A stretch of 64,000 bases of DNA from NCBI GenBank assembly GCA_024233115.1, contig JACKQB010000004.1, forward strand, positions 196,923 through 260,922. Direction: 5' to 3'. Below, in pieces: positions 59,403 through 64,000 of this stretch; the stretch's first letter is position 1; every line of letters starts with the position of its first letter. The notes under the pieces were generated by a model. It did not search any database, was not told where the DNA came from, and saw nothing but the letters and a program-made list of their open reading frames with translations. This DNA comes from Akkermansiaceae bacterium. Its GTDB lineage: Bacteria; Verrucomicrobiota; Verrucomicrobiia; Verrucomicrobiales; Akkermansiaceae. Made by a program: the position numbers and the translations under genes.

Positions 59403-60782
59403 GTGACCAGCACCGATCTCACCACCGGACTTGGCTCGTTATTACGCGCTGAGCAGATATCCACCGCCGAAGACGTCCTCGCAGAACACGCCTCCGACAA
59501 ATGGCACGCCTCCGCGCTGGCGGACGTGGTCGTTTTCCCCGAGACCACCGAGGATGTCTCCAAAGTCATCCGTTTCGCTTCGGCAAAAAACATCCCGGTT
59601 TACACCCGCGCCGCCGGCACCGGCCACATCGGCGGCTGCGTCCCGGTCAAGGGCGGCATCCTCGTCTCCATGATGCGCATGAACCGCATCCTGGAAGTCA
59701 ACCCCGCCGATGGTGTCTGCGTCACCCAGCCGGGTGTCATCACCGGCGAGCTCCAGAATGCCGTTAGAAAACACGGATGGTATTACCCACCCGATCCCGC
59801 GTCCCTGAAGGAGTGCACCATCGGCGGCAACATCGCCACCAACGCCGGCGGCCCGCGCTGCCTGAAATACGGTGTTACCAAACAGTATGTGTTAGGCCTC
59901 GAGGTCGTGCTCGCGTCGGGCGAGGTCCTGCGCACCGGTGGCCGCTGCCACAAAAACTCCACCGGCTTCGATCTCACCTCGCTCATGGTCGGCTCCGAGG
60001 GCATGCTGGGCATCGTCACCGAGATCACCGTCCGACTCATCCCGCACCCGCAGACCCGCGCCATGCTCGGCGCCTCCTTCCCCGACTTCGCGGCCGCCGC
60101 CGCCGCCGTGCAGGCAATCCTCGATTCCGGCACCCTGCCGTCCGCCCTGGAAATCACCGACGGATTCACCATGGCCGCAGCCCGCGATTACCTCGGCGCC
60201 GATAAACTCCCCCCCGGCGACGCCTACCTGATGATCGAAATCGACGGCAACACCGAGACCGTCGCCCGCGAACTCCCCGCCCTACGCGACTTCTTGTTAG
60301 AACACAGGGCACTGCGCATCGATGAGGCACCGGACGAGCCGGCCTGCGAGCAAATCTGGCAGCTCCGCCGCGATTTCTCCTACTCACTCAAACACACCGG
60401 CCTGACCAAACTCAACGAGGACATCGTCGTCCCCCGCTCCAAACTGGTCGATCTCGTCAACTTCGCCAGCCAGCTCCAGCAGGAAACCGGCATCCCGGTC
60501 GCCTGCTTCGGCCACGCCGGCGACGGCAACATCCACACCAACATCATGGTGGAAAACTACGCCGACCCCGAGATTAAAAAGAAAGCCGACACCGCCCTCG
60601 ACCGACTCTTCACCTGGGTCATCGAAAACAACGGCGTCATCTCCGGCGAACACGGCATCGGCCTCGCCAAAAAACCCTGGATCCGCCAGGCCCTCGGCGA
60701 CCTGTCCATGGATACTCATCAAGCGATCAAAAAAGCCCTCGACCCCCAAAATATCCTCAACCCGGGAAAATTTCTAGATTAA
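59403..60782 (+). CDS. FAD-binding oxidoreductase (GlcD / D-lactate dehydrogenase family)
   Basis: It has an FAD_binding_4 region ('VVFPETTEDVSKVIRFA', 'RAAGTGHIGG') and the C-terminal 'ISGEHGIGLAK' and 'DPQNILNPGK'. The start is GTG. Confidence 0.85.
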   Translation: MTSTDLTTGLGSLLRAEQISTAEDVLAEHASDKWHASALADVVVFPETTEDVSKVIRFASAKNIPVYTRAAGTGHIGGCVPVKGGILVSMMRMNRILEVNPADGVCVTQPGVITGELQNAVRKHGWYYPPDPASLKECTIGGNIATNAGGPRCLKYGVTKQYVLGLEVVLASGEVLRTGGRCHKNSTGFDLTSLMVGSEGMLGIVTEITVRLIPHPQTRAMLGASFPDFAAAAAAVQAILDSGTLPSALEITDGFTMAAARDYLGADKLPPGDAYLMIEIDGNTETVARELPALRDFLLEHRALRIDEAPDEPACEQIWQLRRDFSYSLKHTGLTKLNEDIVVPRSKLVDLVNFASQLQQETGIPVACFGHAGDGNIHTNIMVENYADPEIKKKADTALDRLFTWVIENNGVISGEHGIGLAKKPWIRQALGDLSMDTHQAIKKALDPQNILNPGKFLD

Positions 60783-60868: not shown

Positions 60869-61186
60869 ATGAACCTCCAAGTATCCGTCGAAATCCCGGA
60901 ATCCCCGGCCGGGGACCCACCTGCCGACCCATACTGGCTCGACCGCATCTCCAACACCTTCCCCCAGGTCGACCCCGGAACAATCACCACCCTCACCCAG
61001 ACCCAAGCGGTCTCCTTCTACTACAGCATGCTCAATGGCGAAACAATCATGCAGGACACCATCAACCGAATCGCCGACATGATCGCCGGGAACAACCAGC
61101 TGATCGACGACTTGCTGGAAAAAAACAACTCCAACACCGGAATCGCCGTCGCCCTCGGCGCCCTGCTCGGCATCACCCTCTCCTGA
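60869..61186 (+). CDS. Hypothetical protein with a C-terminal hydrophobic tail
   Basis: Only the ORF and a C-terminal 'IAVALGALLGITLS' support it. I recognise no family, so coding status is uncertain. Confidence 0.35.
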   Translation: MNLQVSVEIPESPAGDPPADPYWLDRISNTFPQVDPGTITTLTQTQAVSFYYSMLNGETIMQDTINRIADMIAGNNQLIDDLLEKNNSNTGIAVALGALLGITLS

Positions 61187-61365
61187 TCACCCACCATCCT
61201 AACGAACCTCATTTTACAACAATTTCAGGCTTCATTCCAGCTCACTCACCAGACAAACTCGATATCCGCGTAGGCCCCTACACCTGAAACCCACCACCGT
61301 CCGCACCCAAGCACCGCCACAGCCCGTCCCTCCATCTTTTAATCCTTCATCGCTTCATTCTAAAC

Positions 61366-62994
61366 ATGCCCACACTCAATTGGATCGGTAAAGACGCCGT
61401 CATTCGCCACCACAAGGACGTTCCCTTCCGCCTGCTGGAAGCCGATGCAAAACTTTCCCACAGCTCCGGCGGCGACGACGACGGAAACCTCATCGTCCAG
61501 GGCGATAACCTGCACGCCCTCAAGGCCCTGCTGCCAAAGTACGCCGGCAAGGTGAAGTGCATCTACATCGATCCCCCGTATAACACCGGCAACGAGGGCT
61601 GGGTCTATAACGACAAGGTCAACGCCCCCGAGATCAAGAAATGGCTCGGCGAAACCGTTGGAAAAGAGGCCGAGGATCTGTCGCGCCACGATAAATGGCT
61701 GTGCATGATGTACCCTAGAATGGTTTTGCTGAAACAATTCCTAACAGAGGATGGCGCGATCTTTGTGAGTATTGATGATAATGAAGTGGCGAGTTTGAGG
61801 CTGCTGATGGATGAGATTTTTGGGAAAAAGAATTTTATCACAACCGCAATATGGCAAAAAGTGTTTGCTCCTAAAAACTCCGCTAGGCACCTCTCCGAAG
61901 ATCATGATTATGTAGTTGTTTACGCAACCAGTAGTGAGAAGTGGACTCTCAATCTACTACCTAGAAGTGAAGAAGCCCAAAAGCGTTATAAAAATCCAGA
62001 TGACGATGTGAGAGGAGCATGGACATCTGGTGATATTCAAGCACGCAACTATTATTCAGAAGGAACCTATTCTATAAAATGTCCTAGTGGCCGCATAATA
62101 TCGGGACCGGGCAAAGGAATGTATTGGCGAGTTTCTAAGCAAAAATTCAATGAGCTAGACAACGACAATCGTATTTGGTGGGGTGAGAACGGTGATAATA
62201 TGCCTCGCTTAAAAAGATTCTTATCGGAAGTAAAAGACGGGGTGACGCCTCAAACCCTCTGGTTGCATAAAGAAGTTGGGCACACGCAAGAAGCAAAGAA
62301 GGAACTCTTGGAAGCGGTTCAGTTTGACCACTCGGATGATGTATTCATCACCCCCAAACCAACGCGCCTTATCGAACGCATTCTCCAAATCGCCACCGAC
62401 AAAGACTCCATCATCCTCGACTCCTTCGCCGGCTCCGGCACCACTGGCCATGCCGTGCTGAAGCAGAACGCGGAGGACGGCGGCAATCGCAAGTTCATCC
62501 TCGTCGAGATGGAGGAAAACATCGCCCAGACGATCACCGCCGAGCGCGTGAAACGTGTTGCACAAGGTTACAAAGACGCCAAGGGCAAGAAGGTGACCGG
62601 ACTCGGCGGCGGTTTCCAGTTTTGCCACCTCAGCGACGAGCCATTGTTCAATGAGTTTGGCGATATCCGTGATGACGTCAGCTTTGCCCAGCTGGCGGAC
62701 TTCGTCTGGTTCAGCGAGACCGGGCTAGGTAGGGACGGCTGTCCCAGCCGTCCGGCAGAGGGAACCCCCCTCCTAGGCATCCACGATGGCCGCGCGATCT
62801 ATCTCCTGTTCAACGGCATCCTAGGCGACCGCCGACCCGACGGCGGCAACATCCTCACCCGTCCGATCCTCGACGAACTCCCCGCCCACGATGGCCCCAA
62901 AACCATCTACGCCGCCGCCACCCGTCTCGGCGAACAAAGCCTCCAACGCGAACAAATCACCTTCAAACAAACCCCCTACGCCATCGAAGTCTAA
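61366..62994 (+). CDS. Site-specific DNA methyltransferase, type III Mod-like (beta-class N6A/N4C)
   Basis: The catalytic motif IV 'IDPPYNTGN' is near the N-terminus and the AdoMet motif I 'DSFAGSGTTGHA' is in the C-terminal third. This IV->TRD->I order is as in Mod subunits. The product is 542 aa. Confidence 0.85.
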   Translation: MPTLNWIGKDAVIRHHKDVPFRLLEADAKLSHSSGGDDDGNLIVQGDNLHALKALLPKYAGKVKCIYIDPPYNTGNEGWVYNDKVNAPEIKKWLGETVGKEAEDLSRHDKWLCMMYPRMVLLKQFLTEDGAIFVSIDDNEVASLRLLMDEIFGKKNFITTAIWQKVFAPKNSARHLSEDHDYVVVYATSSEKWTLNLLPRSEEAQKRYKNPDDDVRGAWTSGDIQARNYYSEGTYSIKCPSGRIISGPGKGMYWRVSKQKFNELDNDNRIWWGENGDNMPRLKRFLSEVKDGVTPQTLWLHKEVGHTQEAKKELLEAVQFDHSDDVFITPKPTRLIERILQIATDKDSIILDSFAGSGTTGHAVLKQNAEDGGNRKFILVEMEENIAQTITAERVKRVAQGYKDAKGKKVTGLGGGFQFCHLSDEPLFNEFGDIRDDVSFAQLADFVWFSETGLGRDGCPSRPAEGTPLLGIHDGRAIYLLFNGILGDRRPDGGNILTRPILDELPAHDGPKTIYAAATRLGEQSLQREQITFKQTPYAIEV

Positions 62995-63872
62995 TGTCAG
63001 ATAGAGATAAAGAATACATCCTTTTCTGTGATGAATCTGAAAAGAAGGGGAGCTTCTTCTCCAACTTTTATGGAGGCGTGATGGTGGGTAGCAGCCAATG
63101 GGATGCTGTTGTTTCCAGACTGCAAAAAACGGCGCAGGCTGCTGGAATCCGTTCTGAGGTGAAGTGGTCCAAAGTTGGCCCAATGGAACTTGAGGCATAC
63201 AAAGAGCTGCTGGCGGCGTATTTTGATGAAATCCAAGCCGGAGTTCTCAAGATGCGCGTCATGTTCCGACAAAATGCCCAGGTGCCACAAAACCTCACTT
63301 CCGAGCAACGCAAGGATGAGTATTTCCTCCTCTACTATCAGTTCCTAAAACATGGCTTCGGACTGCATCACATGCCGGATCATTCGCCGGAGGGAGTTAG
63401 CTTGCGCCTCTACCTCGACAAACTCCCAAACCAGAATCGCGAAAGCAAAGAGAGGTTTCGTGGCCACATCGCGGCTCTATCTCAGAATGCGAGACTCCGC
63501 AGAAAGGGGCTTACCATACTTCCGGAAAACATCACGGATGTTGATTCCAAAAGCCACGTCCTCCTGCAATGCATGGATGTGGTTCTTGGCTCCGTCGCCT
63601 TCCGTCTGAACGACAAACACAAAATCAAGCCCGAGGGCAGCTATTACCGGGGTAAACGCACGGTGGCCAAGGAAGACCTCTACAATTTCATCCGAAAGCA
63701 AATTATCCGGGTGACTGGCAAGGCGAATTTCAATGTTGGCGTAACAACGTCACCAAGCAGTTACCCAGACGGCAGGTGGCAAGATGGCTATTTGCACTGG
63801 AAATTTAAATCCAAAGACCACGAATTTGACTCAACCCGGACAAAAAACCACAAAAAGAAAGGCCCCATCTGA
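62994..63872 (+). CDS. DUF3800-like protein (unknown function), translationally coupled to the methyltransferase
   Basis: Its ATG overlaps the Mod stop (TAATG). 'YILFCDESEKKG', 'EVKWSKV' and 'LLQCMDVVLGSVAFRL' resemble the DES / E.KW / Q..D motifs of DUF3800. There are no helicase or Res motifs. It is AT-richer than the host genes. Confidence 0.55.
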   Translation: MSDRDKEYILFCDESEKKGSFFSNFYGGVMVGSSQWDAVVSRLQKTAQAAGIRSEVKWSKVGPMELEAYKELLAAYFDEIQAGVLKMRVMFRQNAQVPQNLTSEQRKDEYFLLYYQFLKHGFGLHHMPDHSPEGVSLRLYLDKLPNQNRESKERFRGHIAALSQNARLRRKGLTILPENITDVDSKSHVLLQCMDVVLGSVAFRLNDKHKIKPEGSYYRGKRTVAKEDLYNFIRKQIIRVTGKANFNVGVTTSPSSYPDGRWQDGYLHWKFKSKDHEFDSTRTKNHKKKGPI

Positions 63873-64000
63873 CCTAATGAGTCTCTGACGCGCCGCGTCA
63901 GGATTCGGTCAAGACAGAGCCTTGTGCGCGTAATAAACCACATACTCGGACTGTAATCAACCTGTTTTTCCATTTCAGTCTATCCTACTGCATAGAACCA

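What the first reader, a model, noticed from the sequence alone, without database searches (positions are those of the whole stretch)
61366..63872. Type III Mod-like methyltransferase translationally coupled to a DUF3800-like protein instead of a Res subunit: candidate new two-gene defence module
The methyltransferase has the beta-class order typical of type III Mod subunits: 'DPPYNTGN' comes early and 'FAGSGTTGHA' comes late, with a long variable region between them. In type III systems the next gene is res, encoding an SF2 helicase-nuclease of roughly 900 aa. Here the next gene starts on the Mod stop codon (TAATG at 62992-62996). It encodes only 292 aa with no Walker or helicase motifs. It does carry 'FCDESEKKG', 'EVKWSKV' and 'LLQCMDVVLGSVAFRL', which resemble the conserved acidic motifs of DUF3800, a family with no assigned function. 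Both genes are AT-richer than the surrounding chromosome, and the pair sits downstream of a housekeeping oxidase gene. One hypothesis is that the DUF3800-like protein is the effector (a nuclease or other toxin) whose action is prevented by Mod-dependent methylation, or which partners physically with Mod for target recognition. The window ends 128 bp after this gene, so further components may lie beyond it.
Basis: partly seen in the sequence, partly recalled or inferred. Interest (0 to 1): 0.7.

Follow-up and report, generated by a model that had tools for sequence, protein, structure and literature searches.

The report
Nuclease-plus-RNA cassette inside restriction operon
The methyltransferase belongs to an ordinary, complete type III restriction system whose cutting-enzyme gene lies just past the window's edge, and between the two genes sits a widespread, still unexplained pair (an RNase H-like DUF3800 protein and its own 65-nt structured RNA) that repeatedly turns up inside restriction operons.

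Summary
Both ORFs and all quoted motifs are real. The 542-aa protein is a full-length type III Mod. The 292-aa protein is a DUF3800 member with a confident RNase HII-like predicted fold.

The headline claim, "DUF3800 instead of Res", fails. The window comes from an Akkermansiaceae MAG contig in which Mod, DUF3800 and a full-length type III Res (889 aa) carry consecutive GenBank protein accessions (MCP5536965, MCP5536966, MCP5536967). Res is therefore the next annotated gene, just beyond position 64000.

It is a 65-nt structured sRNA (Rfam RF03075, DUF3800-VIII) on the opposite strand at 63923→63859, abutting the gene's 3' end. The pairing has identical geometry in 72 of 80 other species, and six more have weak matches at the same site. 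Covariation is strong, and the RNA has its own promoter and U-tract.

Homologues of this Mod lie near the DUF3800 gene in only 3 of 80 loci. However, 24 of 80 cassettes sit inside type I, IIG, III or Dnd operons, in at least 14 separate places on the protein tree.

My reading is a known but uncharacterised protein–RNA cassette inserted into a canonical type III operon. It is probably an RNA-controlled accessory nuclease, but that function is untested.

The parts
61366..62994 (+). mod: type III restriction-modification methyltransferase (beta-class N6-adenine, motif IV before motif I), 542 aa. It is identical to GenBank MCP5536965.1.
   Evidence: PF01555 E 9e-41. PADLOC MTase_III PDLC03644 matches 1-541 to 1-540/542 at 729 bits. 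Zero differences from P0121. Relatives 72-80% identical sit in mod-res operons.
61711..62330 (+). Low-GC central segment of mod (42.6% GC against 58-60% at both ends). It lies between the two catalytic motifs, where the target-recognition region of beta-class enzymes sits.
   Evidence: Composition. Assigning it to target recognition is an inference from the motif positions.
62992..62996 (+). TAATG stop/start overlap coupling mod to the DUF3800 gene.
   Evidence: Read from the sequence. About a third of related loci show the same tight junction with whatever gene lies upstream.
62994..63872 (+). DUF3800-family gene, 292 aa (MCP5536966.1). Residues ~7-205 form an RNase HII-like core with invariant D13, E14, E55, D142, H188, Q192 and D195. 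Residues ~206-290 form a basic C-terminal extension.
   Evidence: PF12686 at 31.8 bits. Invariant columns in alignment A1. AF2 model pLDDT 93, pTM 0.91. The 28 best Foldseek PDB hits are all RNase HII/H2/HIII, with E down to 3e-5.
63859..63923 (-). DUF3800-VIII small RNA (Rfam RF03075). It is a 65-nt three-helix hairpin with conserved internal-loop bases (CCGAA ... GUAGG). It is convergent with the DUF3800 ORF and overlaps its last 14 nt.
   Evidence: Rfam 53.9 bits against a cut-off of 40.2. My own covariance model gives 67.5 bits. Across 70 distinct sequences 93.5% of cells are paired and 14 of 20 pairs show compensatory changes. MFE is -35.3 kcal/mol, z -5.2.
63842..63858 (-). U-rich tail (UCUUUUUGUGGUUUUUU) directly after the RNA's outer stem. 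It is the likely intrinsic terminator of the sRNA. Its complement encodes the Lys-rich C-terminus of the DUF3800 protein.
   Evidence: Terminator-like site with tail TTCTTTTTGT. A U-tract follows the motif in 78% of loci against 3% of control positions.
63932..63960 (-). Putative sRNA promoter (TTGATT, 17 nt, TTTATT, ending 8 nt before the motif). It is weak in this window.
   Evidence: Read from the sequence; it did not pass the simple scan. In relatives a promoter match of 9/12 or better lies at this position in 42% of loci against 2% of controls.

Best explanation
Shown:
- The locus is a complete type III restriction-modification operon, mod then res.
- A self-contained two-part cassette sits between the two genes.
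- Part one is a DUF3800-family gene encoding an RNase HII-like protein. It carries an invariant acidic set (D13-E14 ... D142 ... Q192xxD195) and a basic C-terminal extension. Its start codon overlaps the mod stop codon.
- Part two is a 65-nt structured small RNA (Rfam DUF3800-VIII). It is transcribed towards the gene from its own promoter and ends in a U-tract inside the gene's last codons.
- The conserved unit is protein plus RNA, not Mod plus protein.

Inferred:
- The RNA is a dedicated ligand of the nuclease. Most likely it holds the enzyme in check, in the way the RNA antitoxin of a type III toxin-antitoxin pair restrains its toxin.
- The pair would then act as an accessory, second-line or abortive-infection type defence.
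- Placement inside operons for DNA-modification-based defence (type I, IIG, III, Dnd) gives co-expression with the modification subunits. It may also let the nuclease act when the restriction system is disabled, as PrrC does for EcoprrI and RonA for its HsdMS.
- The substrate and the trigger are unknown.
For: Anatomy:
- Res follows the cassette. The FAD-binding protein, Mod, DUF3800 and Res carry accessions MCP5536963, MCP5536965, MCP5536966 and MCP5536967 on one 667,366-bp contig. Res matches PADLOC REase_III end to end.
- Close Mod relatives show the same variable slot: mod-105aa-res, mod-AlbA_2-res, mod-res-DUF3800(PDC-M04A)-PDC-M04B and mod-res-CHAT.

Protein-RNA unit:
- The RNA is on the opposite strand abutting the gene's 3' end in 19 of 20 loci by Rfam.
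- My own model finds it in 72 of 80 loci. Six of the other eight have weak hits at the same site.
- No copy lies away from a DUF3800 gene in about 1 Mb searched.
- Covariation: 14 of 20 pairs have compensatory changes; none of 500 shuffles reached the observed values; shifted-register (slid-partner) controls pair only 32-47% of cells.
- Near-invariant U-G and G-U pairs, and 80.8 against 19.9 bits on the two strands, fix the transcribed strand.
- Promoter and U-tract enrichment.

Defence link:
- Restriction-gene hits make up 19.8% of immediate neighbours. They fall to 5.9%, 2.0% and 1.1% with distance.
- 24 of 80 loci lie inside RM or Dnd operons, in at least 14 separate places on the protein tree.
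- The three closest relatives with context all sit in type III-like loci with non-orthologous Mods and different gene orders.
- The literature places DUF3800 nucleases in retron type VII and in Cas12a2/a3 and Cas13 loci (PMC7736814, PMC10910872, PMC12669027).
- PrrC and Ronin are precedents for effectors embedded in RM operons (PMC2610378; bioRxiv 10.1101/2023.04.06.535777).
Against: - No experiment bears on function. Weinberg et al. (PMC5737381) found no specific hypothesis for these RNAs.
- About 70% of cassettes sit next to housekeeping genes. A physical dependence on a restriction complex therefore cannot be general.
- The geometry differs from known type III toxin-antitoxin loci. Those have tandem RNA repeats upstream of the toxin in the same orientation. 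Here the RNA is single-copy and convergent.
- The strictly convergent, overlapping layout would also suit an antisense mechanism.
- The position of res rests on consecutive accession numbers and one contig length, not on sequence I could read. Its strand and exact distance are unknown. It does not start within 391 nt of the DUF3800 stop.
Confidence: 0.6

Rival explanations
1. Mod and the DUF3800 protein form a new two-gene defence system in which DUF3800 replaces Res as the effector and is held in check by Mod-dependent methylation.
For: The TAATG coupling is real. No res gene lies in the window or in the 391 nt after the gene.
Against: A full-length type III Res is the next numbered protein on the same contig. 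A homologue of this Mod lies near the DUF3800 gene in only 3 of 80 other loci. The same DUF3800 subfamily is coupled just as tightly to hsdS, hsdM, dndC or housekeeping genes.
Confidence: 0.03
2. Antisense control. The small RNA acts by base-pairing with the 3' end of the mod-DUF3800(-res) transcript, which is necessarily complementary to it. This would trigger cleavage or block read-through, setting the level of DUF3800 or of res, like the convergent 3'-overlapping antitoxin RNAs of Bacillus type I toxin-antitoxin loci (my own knowledge).
For: The convergent, abutting or overlapping geometry is the same in all 72 strong matches among the 80 loci. The RNA has its own promoter and its terminator lies inside the ORF's end.
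Against: Compensatory changes that preserve helices, and invariant unpaired bases, are not needed for perfect cis-antisense pairing. Other DUF3800-associated RNA motifs occur on either side and in either orientation of their genes (PMC5737381). In about 70% of loci no downstream restriction gene is there to be regulated.
Confidence: 0.2
3. RNA as cofactor rather than inhibitor. The RNA forms a working ribonucleoprotein with the RNase H-like enzyme, as a scaffold, substrate mimic or specificity element.
For: RNase H-fold enzymes often act with nucleic-acid partners. DUF3800 domains accompany ncRNA-based systems such as retron type VII, Cas12a2/a3 and Cas13 (PMC7736814, PMC10910872, bioRxiv 10.64898/2026.08.25.746378). 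The basic C-terminal extension is conserved.
Against: Promoter and terminator bracket the 65-nt motif tightly. The variable positions lie in helices and change in a compensatory way. That leaves no room for a variable guide segment.
Confidence: 0.15
4. Selfish addiction cassette. The pair is a mobile toxin-antitoxin-like element with no defence role. It accumulates in restriction operons and other tolerant sites.
For: The distribution is patchy across many phyla. Flanks are very diverse, including housekeeping genes. The DUF3800 gene is 49.4% GC against 56.1% for the window.
Against: Restriction-gene neighbours are concentrated at the immediately adjacent position and fall off steeply, with repeated independent associations. 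No transposase, integrase or terminal repeats were seen at the cassette ends in the window.
Confidence: 0.12

Closest known systems
DUF3800 genes with DUF3800-associated RNA motifs (Weinberg et al. 2017, PMC5737381; Rfam RF03075 DUF3800-VIII)
   Same: This is the same thing. The protein passes the Pfam cut-off and the RNA passes the Rfam cut-off, and they are adjacent.
   Different: Nothing differs structurally. What is added here: the fixed convergent geometry, the promoter and terminator, the RNase HII-like model for this subfamily, and the frequent residence inside RM and Dnd operons. Function remains unknown in the literature.
Canonical type III restriction-modification systems (mod-res, EcoP15I-like)
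   Same: Beta-class Mod with a full-length MTase_III profile match. A full-length REase_III Res is the next annotated protein-coding gene after the DUF3800 gene.
   Different: mod and res are separated by an inserted cassette of at least 1.3 kb instead of being adjacent or overlapping.
PADLOC candidate system PDC-M04 (DUF3800-like A plus a ~150-aa B protein)
   Same: The window protein is distantly related to PDC-M04A (65.9 bits). A true PDC-M04 pair sits directly after res in the closest Mod relative (L095; A 215.7 bits, B 166.9 bits).
   Different: The window protein shares 24% identity with that A protein. It has an extra C-terminal extension of about 90 aa, has no B gene, and has an RNA partner instead.
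PrrC/EcoprrI and Ronin (RonA with HsdMS): abortive-infection effectors embedded in restriction operons
   Same: An unrelated effector gene sits inside a restriction operon next to the modification or specificity genes (PMC2610378; bioRxiv 10.1101/2023.04.06.535777).
   Different: The effector family differs: an RNase H fold, not an ABC-ATPase anticodon nuclease or a 61-aa membrane peptide. An RNA partner is present. Most family members are not next to restriction genes. No trigger is known.
Type III toxin-antitoxin systems (ToxIN-like)
   Same: The proposed logic is the same: a structured RNA partner dedicated to one nuclease.
   Different: The RNA is single-copy and convergent downstream of the gene, not a tandem repeat array upstream in the same orientation. 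The nuclease fold is different.
Retron type VII and the DUF3800 accessory proteins of Cas12a2/a3 and Cas13 loci
   Same: The same protein family is attached to a defence system that also uses a structured ncRNA (PMC7736814, PMC10910872, PMC12669027).
   Different: The genes on either side of the cassette are mod and res, not a reverse transcriptase or a Cas gene, and no TPR domain is fused to the protein.

Membership tests
Type III restriction-modification system | Mod subunit: beta-class N6/N4 methyltransferase with motif IV (DPPY) before motif I (FxGxG) | tested here: met
   DPPYNTGN lies early and FAGSGTTGHA late. PF01555 E 9e-41. PADLOC MTase_III PDLC03644 matches end to end at 729 bits.
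Type III restriction-modification system | Res subunit (SF2 helicase-nuclease, ~870-990 aa) encoded in the same operon | tested here: met
   Res is not in the window. P0272 (889 aa) matches REase_III PDLC03650 over 4-876 of 898 positions at 424 bits. Its accession MCP5536967.1 follows Mod (MCP5536965.1) and DUF3800 (MCP5536966.1) on one 667,366-bp contig. Strand and distance were not seen.
Type III restriction-modification system | Methylation of one strand of an asymmetric site, and ATP-dependent cleavage | not testable with these tools
   Needs methylome sequencing and enzymology.
Pfam DUF3800 (PF12686) | Profile score above the gathering cut-off | tested here: met
   31.8 bits against 21, residues 9-203 covering profile positions 1-148 of 149.
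Pfam DUF3800 (PF12686) | N-terminal DE motif and C-terminal QxxD motif (as described in PMC7736814) | tested here: met
   D13-E14 and Q192-C-M-D195 are invariant in 30 diverse relatives.
Pfam DUF3800 (PF12686) | RNase H-like fold | tested here: met
   AF2 model pLDDT 93. The 28 best PDB matches are RNase HII/H2/HIII, with probability 1.00 for the top 19, E down to 3e-5 and TM 0.34-0.54 on target length. No match by sequence to any solved structure.
Rfam RF03075 DUF3800-VIII RNA | Covariance-model score above the gathering cut-off, over the full model | tested here: met
   53.9 bits against 40.2, model positions 1-64 of 64, E 2.7e-8.
Rfam RF03075 DUF3800-VIII RNA | Next to a DUF3800 gene, with a structure supported by covariation | tested here: met
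   It abuts the gene in the window and in 72 of 80 other loci. 14 of 20 pairs have compensatory changes, and none of 500 shuffles reached the observed values.
PADLOC PDC-M04 | Full-length match to the A component | tested here: not met
   Only 65.9 bits over profile positions 3-189 of 232. A true member scores 215.7 bits end to end. Identity between the two is 24%.
PADLOC PDC-M04 | B component (~150 aa) encoded directly downstream | tested here: not met
   No ORF follows within the window or within 391 nt. The next annotated protein is Res.
Type III toxin-antitoxin | Antitoxin RNA as tandem repeats upstream of the toxin gene in the same orientation | tested here: not met
   There is one RNA copy, convergent and downstream. 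No tandem repeats lie in 61000-64000.
Type III toxin-antitoxin | The RNA binds and neutralises the protein toxin | not testable with these tools
   Needs co-expression toxicity tests and binding assays.
Retron type VII | Reverse transcriptase fused to, or adjacent to, the DUF3800 domain | tested here: not met
   The protein has a DUF3800 hit only. The flanking genes are mod and res.
PrrC-like RM-embedded anticodon nuclease | Effector gene located inside a restriction operon | tested here: met
   The window has mod-DUF3800-res. 24 of 80 related loci lie inside RM or Dnd operons.
PrrC-like RM-embedded anticodon nuclease | ABC-ATPase N-domain plus anticodon-nuclease C-domain | tested here: not met
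   No such family hits the protein. The predicted fold is RNase HII-like.

The most novel reading that the evidence does not exclude
The DUF3800 protein and its DUF3800-VIII RNA form a new class of RNA-gated RNase H-like suicide or backup nuclease. It guards DNA-modification-based immunity (type I, IIG, III RM and Dnd). The RNA keeps the nuclease latent. Phage interference with host transcription or with the restriction complex releases it. This would give a first function to an orphan RNA class described in 2017 and, by extension, to the other ten DUF3800 RNA motifs.
Probability: 0.25. Interest if true: 0.75.

Novelty: new member of a known kind. Interest (0 to 1): 0.4.

Why it matters
As originally posed, a Res-less Mod+DUF3800 system, the finding does not hold, and that removes a false lead. 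What remains is a clean example of a protein–RNA pair that is widespread and extremely well conserved. Relatives occur in at least 552 GTDB species representatives across many phyla, and nobody has assigned the pair a function.

Two observations here make it more testable. First, the RNA is a discrete 65-nt transcript with its own promoter and terminator. Its geometry relative to the gene is invariant. Second, the cassette sits inside restriction or Dnd operons in 24 of 80 loci (30%), immediately next to the modification or specificity genes, and it has arrived there independently many times.

That points to direct experiments: express the nuclease with and without the RNA, and challenge with phage with and without anti-restriction proteins. 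The results could also inform the roles of DUF3800 proteins in retron type VII and in Cas12a2/a3 and Cas13 loci.

Tried and rejected
1. Reading past position 64000:
- Exact-protein look-ups for Mod, P0121 and Res P0272 found nothing on record.
- Look-ups for the DUF3800 protein and for the 607-aa upstream protein returned only short Logan contigs.
- The metagenome scan found no contig from the same species.
- The question was settled indirectly through accession numbers.

2. A res gene inside the window or in the 391-nt Logan extension: none found.

3. Mod as the conserved partner: rejected, 3 of 80 loci.

4. The hairpin as a plus-strand terminator of the DUF3800 gene: rejected. The near-invariant U-G and G-U pairs would be mismatches on the plus strand. 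The plus strand scores 19.9 bits against 80.8. The promoter and U-tract lie on the minus strand.

5. An RNA-guide model: judged unlikely, because promoter and terminator leave no variable segment.

6. Searches that added nothing:
- NCBIfam has no model for the 292-aa protein.
- PDB sequence search found nothing.
- PHROGs gives only a weak hit to a family of unknown function.
- The PADLOC census of neighbours was swamped by redundant HsdS models.
- The supplement of Weinberg et al. is not held.
- Literature searches for PDC-M04 and for functional work on the DUF3800 RNAs found nothing.

7. Two calls produced nothing: an empty script and a wrong-frame reference.
Full report
**1. Observation**

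One runs 61366..62994 (+, 542 aa) and the other 62994..63872 (+, 292 aa). The second ATG overlaps the first TAA (TAATG, 62992-62996). All quoted peptide motifs are present in the stated order.

Profile searches confirm both identities:
- The first protein hits PF01555 N6_N4_Mtase at E 9e-41. It aligns end to end with PADLOC's type III methyltransferase model PDLC03644 at 729 bits.
- The second protein passes the Pfam cut-off for DUF3800 (31.8 against 21 bits). It also hits PADLOC PDC-M04A weakly and partially (65.9 bits).

The composition claim holds for the DUF3800 gene (49.4% GC against 56.1% for the window). In mod the drop is confined to the central 61711-62330 (42.6%), while both ends are 58-60%.

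**2.

An Rfam scan of the region gave one hit: RF03075, DUF3800-VIII RNA. It lies on the minus strand at 63923→63859, scores 53.9 bits (cut-off 40.2, E 3e-8) and covers the full model. It overlaps the last 14 nt of the DUF3800 ORF.

The sequence folds at -35.3 kcal/mol (z -5.2) and is followed by UCUUUUUGUGGUUUUUU.

Weinberg et al. (PMC5737381) described eleven unrelated RNA motifs linked to DUF3800 genes. They could offer no specific hypothesis for their function. I found no later functional work in the library.

**3. The conserved unit is protein plus RNA**

The 292-aa protein belongs to a large, tightly conserved subfamily. There are 977 clusters at E ≤ 1e-5, and the best 120 are mostly 280-300 aa long and 47-89% identical. 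Invariant residues include D13, E14, E55, D142, H188, Q192 and D195. The C-terminal region is conserved and basic.

They span Verrucomicrobiota, Planctomycetota, Chloroflexota, Bacilli, Acidobacteriota and others. I kept the 80 best loci.

Evidence that the RNA is the constant partner:
- Rfam found the RNA in 19 of 20 short loci.
- A covariance model built from those hits found it in 72 of 80 loci plus the window. It is always on the strand opposite the gene and always abuts or overlaps the gene's 3' end. No copy occurs anywhere else in about 1 Mb.
- Six of the eight remaining loci have weaker, slightly longer matches at exactly that site. All further close relatives have it too.

Evidence for the structure and the strand:
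- Across 70 distinct sequences, 93.5% of cells are paired and 14 of 20 pairs carry compensatory changes. None of 500 shuffles reached the observed values, and shifted-register controls give 32-47% pairing.
- Near-invariant U-G and G-U pairs, and 80.8 against 19.9 bits on the two strands, show the minus strand is the functional one.
- A sigma-70-like promoter ends 6-12 nt before the motif in many loci (a match of 9/12 or better in 42% against 2% of controls). A U-tract follows the motif in 78% against 3%.

The RNA is therefore a discrete transcript of about 65-85 nt. Its terminator is the complement of the codons for the protein's Lys-rich tail.

**4. Mod is not the conserved partner, and Res is present**

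A homologue of the window's Mod lies near the DUF3800 gene in only 3 of the 80 loci, and never in the same arrangement.

The window's Mod is identical to GenBank MCP5536965.1 from an Akkermansiaceae MAG, on a contig of 667,366 bp. I could not retrieve that contig.

An exact-sequence look-up gave the accessions instead, all on a contig of that length:
- FAD-binding protein (window 59403-60782): MCP5536963.1
- Mod: MCP5536965.1
- DUF3800: MCP5536966.1
- an 889-aa 'DEAD/DEAH box helicase family protein': MCP5536967.1

That last protein is 71% identical to the Res that accompanies the closest Mod relative. It aligns end to end with PADLOC REase_III PDLC03650 at 424 bits. The gene order is therefore mod – DUF3800 – (sRNA, antisense) – res.

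Res is not in the window and does not start within 391 nt of the DUF3800 stop.

**5. The mod-res operon of this family is a landing site for accessory genes**

Contexts of the closest Mod relatives:

| Locus | Mod identity | Gene order |
|---|---|---|
| L086 | 80% | mod – 105-aa ORF – res |
| L087 (Pontiella) | 76% | mod – AlbA_2/HATPase_c_4 protein – res |
| L095/L096 | 80% | mod – res – DUF3800 (233 aa) – 150-aa protein |
| L097 | 72% | mod – res – CHAT-domain protein, in an integrase island |

In L095/L096 the last two proteins are full-length PDC-M04A (215.7 bits) and PDC-M04B (166.9 bits). The 233-aa protein is only 24% identical to the window's protein.

**6. The cassette favours operons for DNA-modification-based defence**

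The closest relatives of the window's DUF3800 protein that have context also lie in type III-like loci, but with non-orthologous Mods and different gene orders:
- L083-L085 (68% identity): res – DUF3800+RNA – mod (PDLC03632).
- L082 (74% identity): DrmD-like SNF2 – mod (PDLC03646) – GmrSD – DUF3800+RNA – REase_III.

Across the 80 loci, the commonest Pfam families among 101 immediate neighbours are ResIII (9), Methylase_S (8), Eco57I (7), SWI2_SNF2 (5), DEAD (5), N6_Mtase (4) and HSDR_N (4). Representatives were confirmed as type I M, S and R subunits, type IIG enzymes and type III Mod. One locus sits between dndC and a dndD-like gene.

With HMMs built from these neighbours, restriction-gene hits fall off steeply with distance (Fisher p 3e-5 for the first against the last row):

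| Position relative to the DUF3800 gene | Share of ORFs with a restriction-gene hit |
|---|---|
| ±1 | 19.8% |
| ±2-3 | 5.9% |
| ±4-6 | 2.0% |
| ≥7 | 1.1% |

One caveat applies: the models come from the near neighbours themselves.

In all, 24 of 80 loci lie inside RM or Dnd operons, in at least 14 separate places on a neighbour-joining tree of the proteins. The other ~70% flank unrelated housekeeping genes.

In about a third of loci the DUF3800 start codon overlaps, or lies within 20 nt of, the end of the upstream gene, whatever that gene is.

**7. The protein**

AlphaFold2 with the 30-sequence alignment gives a confident model (pLDDT 93, pTM 0.91). The 28 best Foldseek PDB matches are all RNase HII, H2 or HIII, with E down to 3e-5, probability 1.00 for the top 19 and TM 0.34-0.54 on target length. 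No solved structure matches by sequence.

This agrees with published descriptions of DUF3800:
- an RNase H-fold nuclease with a DE motif and a QxxD motif;
- fused or adjacent to retron type VII reverse transcriptases (PMC7736814);
- adjacent to Cas12a2/a3 (PMC10910872, PMC13594972);
- present in some type VI and V-A2 loci (PMC12669027; Csx32 in bioRxiv 10.64898/2026.08.25.746378).

**8. How it most likely works**

Shown: a complete type III operon split by a protein-plus-RNA cassette. The protein has the fold and the invariant acidic residues of an RNase H-type nuclease. The RNA is a separately transcribed, structurally constrained molecule found only beside this gene.

Inferred: the RNA is a ligand of the protein. 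Helices kept by compensatory change, and invariant unpaired bases (CCGAA, GUAGG), are what recognition by a protein needs. Perfect cis-antisense pairing does not need them. Other DUF3800 RNAs lie on either side and in either orientation of their genes (PMC5737381).

My preferred model is an RNA-restrained nuclease acting as an accessory or backup defence. Its logic is that of a type III toxin-antitoxin pair, though it is not a member of that class: the RNA is single-copy, convergent and not a tandem array.

Residence next to modification and specificity genes recalls two precedents. PrrC is silenced by EcoprrI and released by a phage anti-restriction peptide (PMC2610378). RonA is restrained by its HsdMS (bioRxiv 10.1101/2023.04.06.535777). 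Because most cassettes have no restriction neighbour, a physical latch to a restriction complex cannot be the general mechanism.

I put about 0.9 on the anatomy and about 0.35 on the RNA-inhibitor model. Antisense control (0.2), an RNA cofactor (0.15) and a purely selfish addiction cassette (0.12) remain open.

**9. Verdict**

The feature is a new member of a known but functionally uncharacterised kind, inside an ordinary type III system. Interest is moderate. The RM-embedding pattern and the defined sRNA make an orphan RNA class from 2017 directly testable.

Noticed in passing
window 61366-62994: The GC content of mod is mosaic: 57.7% (61366-61710), 42.6% (61711-62330) and 59.9% (62331-62994). 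Protein identity to relatives from other phyla stays at 62-78% in the low-GC middle. This could reflect a recombined target-recognition segment or a family-wide composition bias.
   Followed up: partly
L001 1611-1626 and 1745-1760 (234-383 nt after the DUF3800 stop, beyond window position 64000): A perfect 16-nt inverted repeat (GGCTTGCCTCCGCTTT / AAAGCGGAGGCAAGCC), with a nested 12-nt one, lies between the cassette and the expected res gene. The Logan contig ends just after it. It may be a REP-like or MITE-like element.
   Followed up: no
window 63842-63872 and the same site in L007, L012, L050 and others: tblastn alignments of the DUF3800 protein run through the stop codon in many loci. The apparently conserved Lys-rich and Pro-Thr/Ile C-terminal tail is the complement of the sRNA's outer stem and U-tract. 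RNA constraints therefore shape the protein's end.
   Followed up: partly
L005 8001-8861: The DUF3800 ORF of this Opitutales MAG has an in-frame stop codon, while the adjacent RNA is intact at 66.4 bits. This could be a pseudogene, a recoding event or an assembly error.
   Followed up: no
L095 11281-12421 and L096 4774-5914: A full-length PADLOC PDC-M04 pair (DUF3800-like A of 233 aa, B of 150 aa) overlaps the end of res in the closest relative of the window's Mod. This is a second, independent DUF3800 association with this type III family. No Rfam RNA was found there.
   Followed up: partly
L008 3649-8186: The DUF3800+RNA cassette sits between a DndC-like gene (PAPS_reduct plus Sp-DndD) and a DndD-like AAA_23 ATPase. 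That places it inside a phosphorothioate-modification operon.
   Followed up: no
L087 9827-11293; L097 3325-13561: Other cargo occurs in the same mod-res family. Pontiella has an AlbA_2/HATPase_c_4 protein between mod and res, which hits a PADLOC pAgo-associated model. In L097 a CHAT-domain (BovA-like) protein follows res, in an island with an integrase and a DUF3987 protein.
   Followed up: no
L043, L047, L052, L055, L059, L066 (just after each DUF3800 gene): These loci carry a longer RNA variant of 72-75 nt. It scores only 15-24 bits with my model and falls below the Rfam cut-off where tested (L055), yet it sits at exactly the expected position and strand. It is probably a divergent sub-type of the motif.
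   Followed up: partly
window 60869-61186: A 105-aa ORF lies between the FAD-binding oxidase gene and mod. It probably corresponds to the unseen accession MCP5536964. I did not examine it.
   Followed up: no
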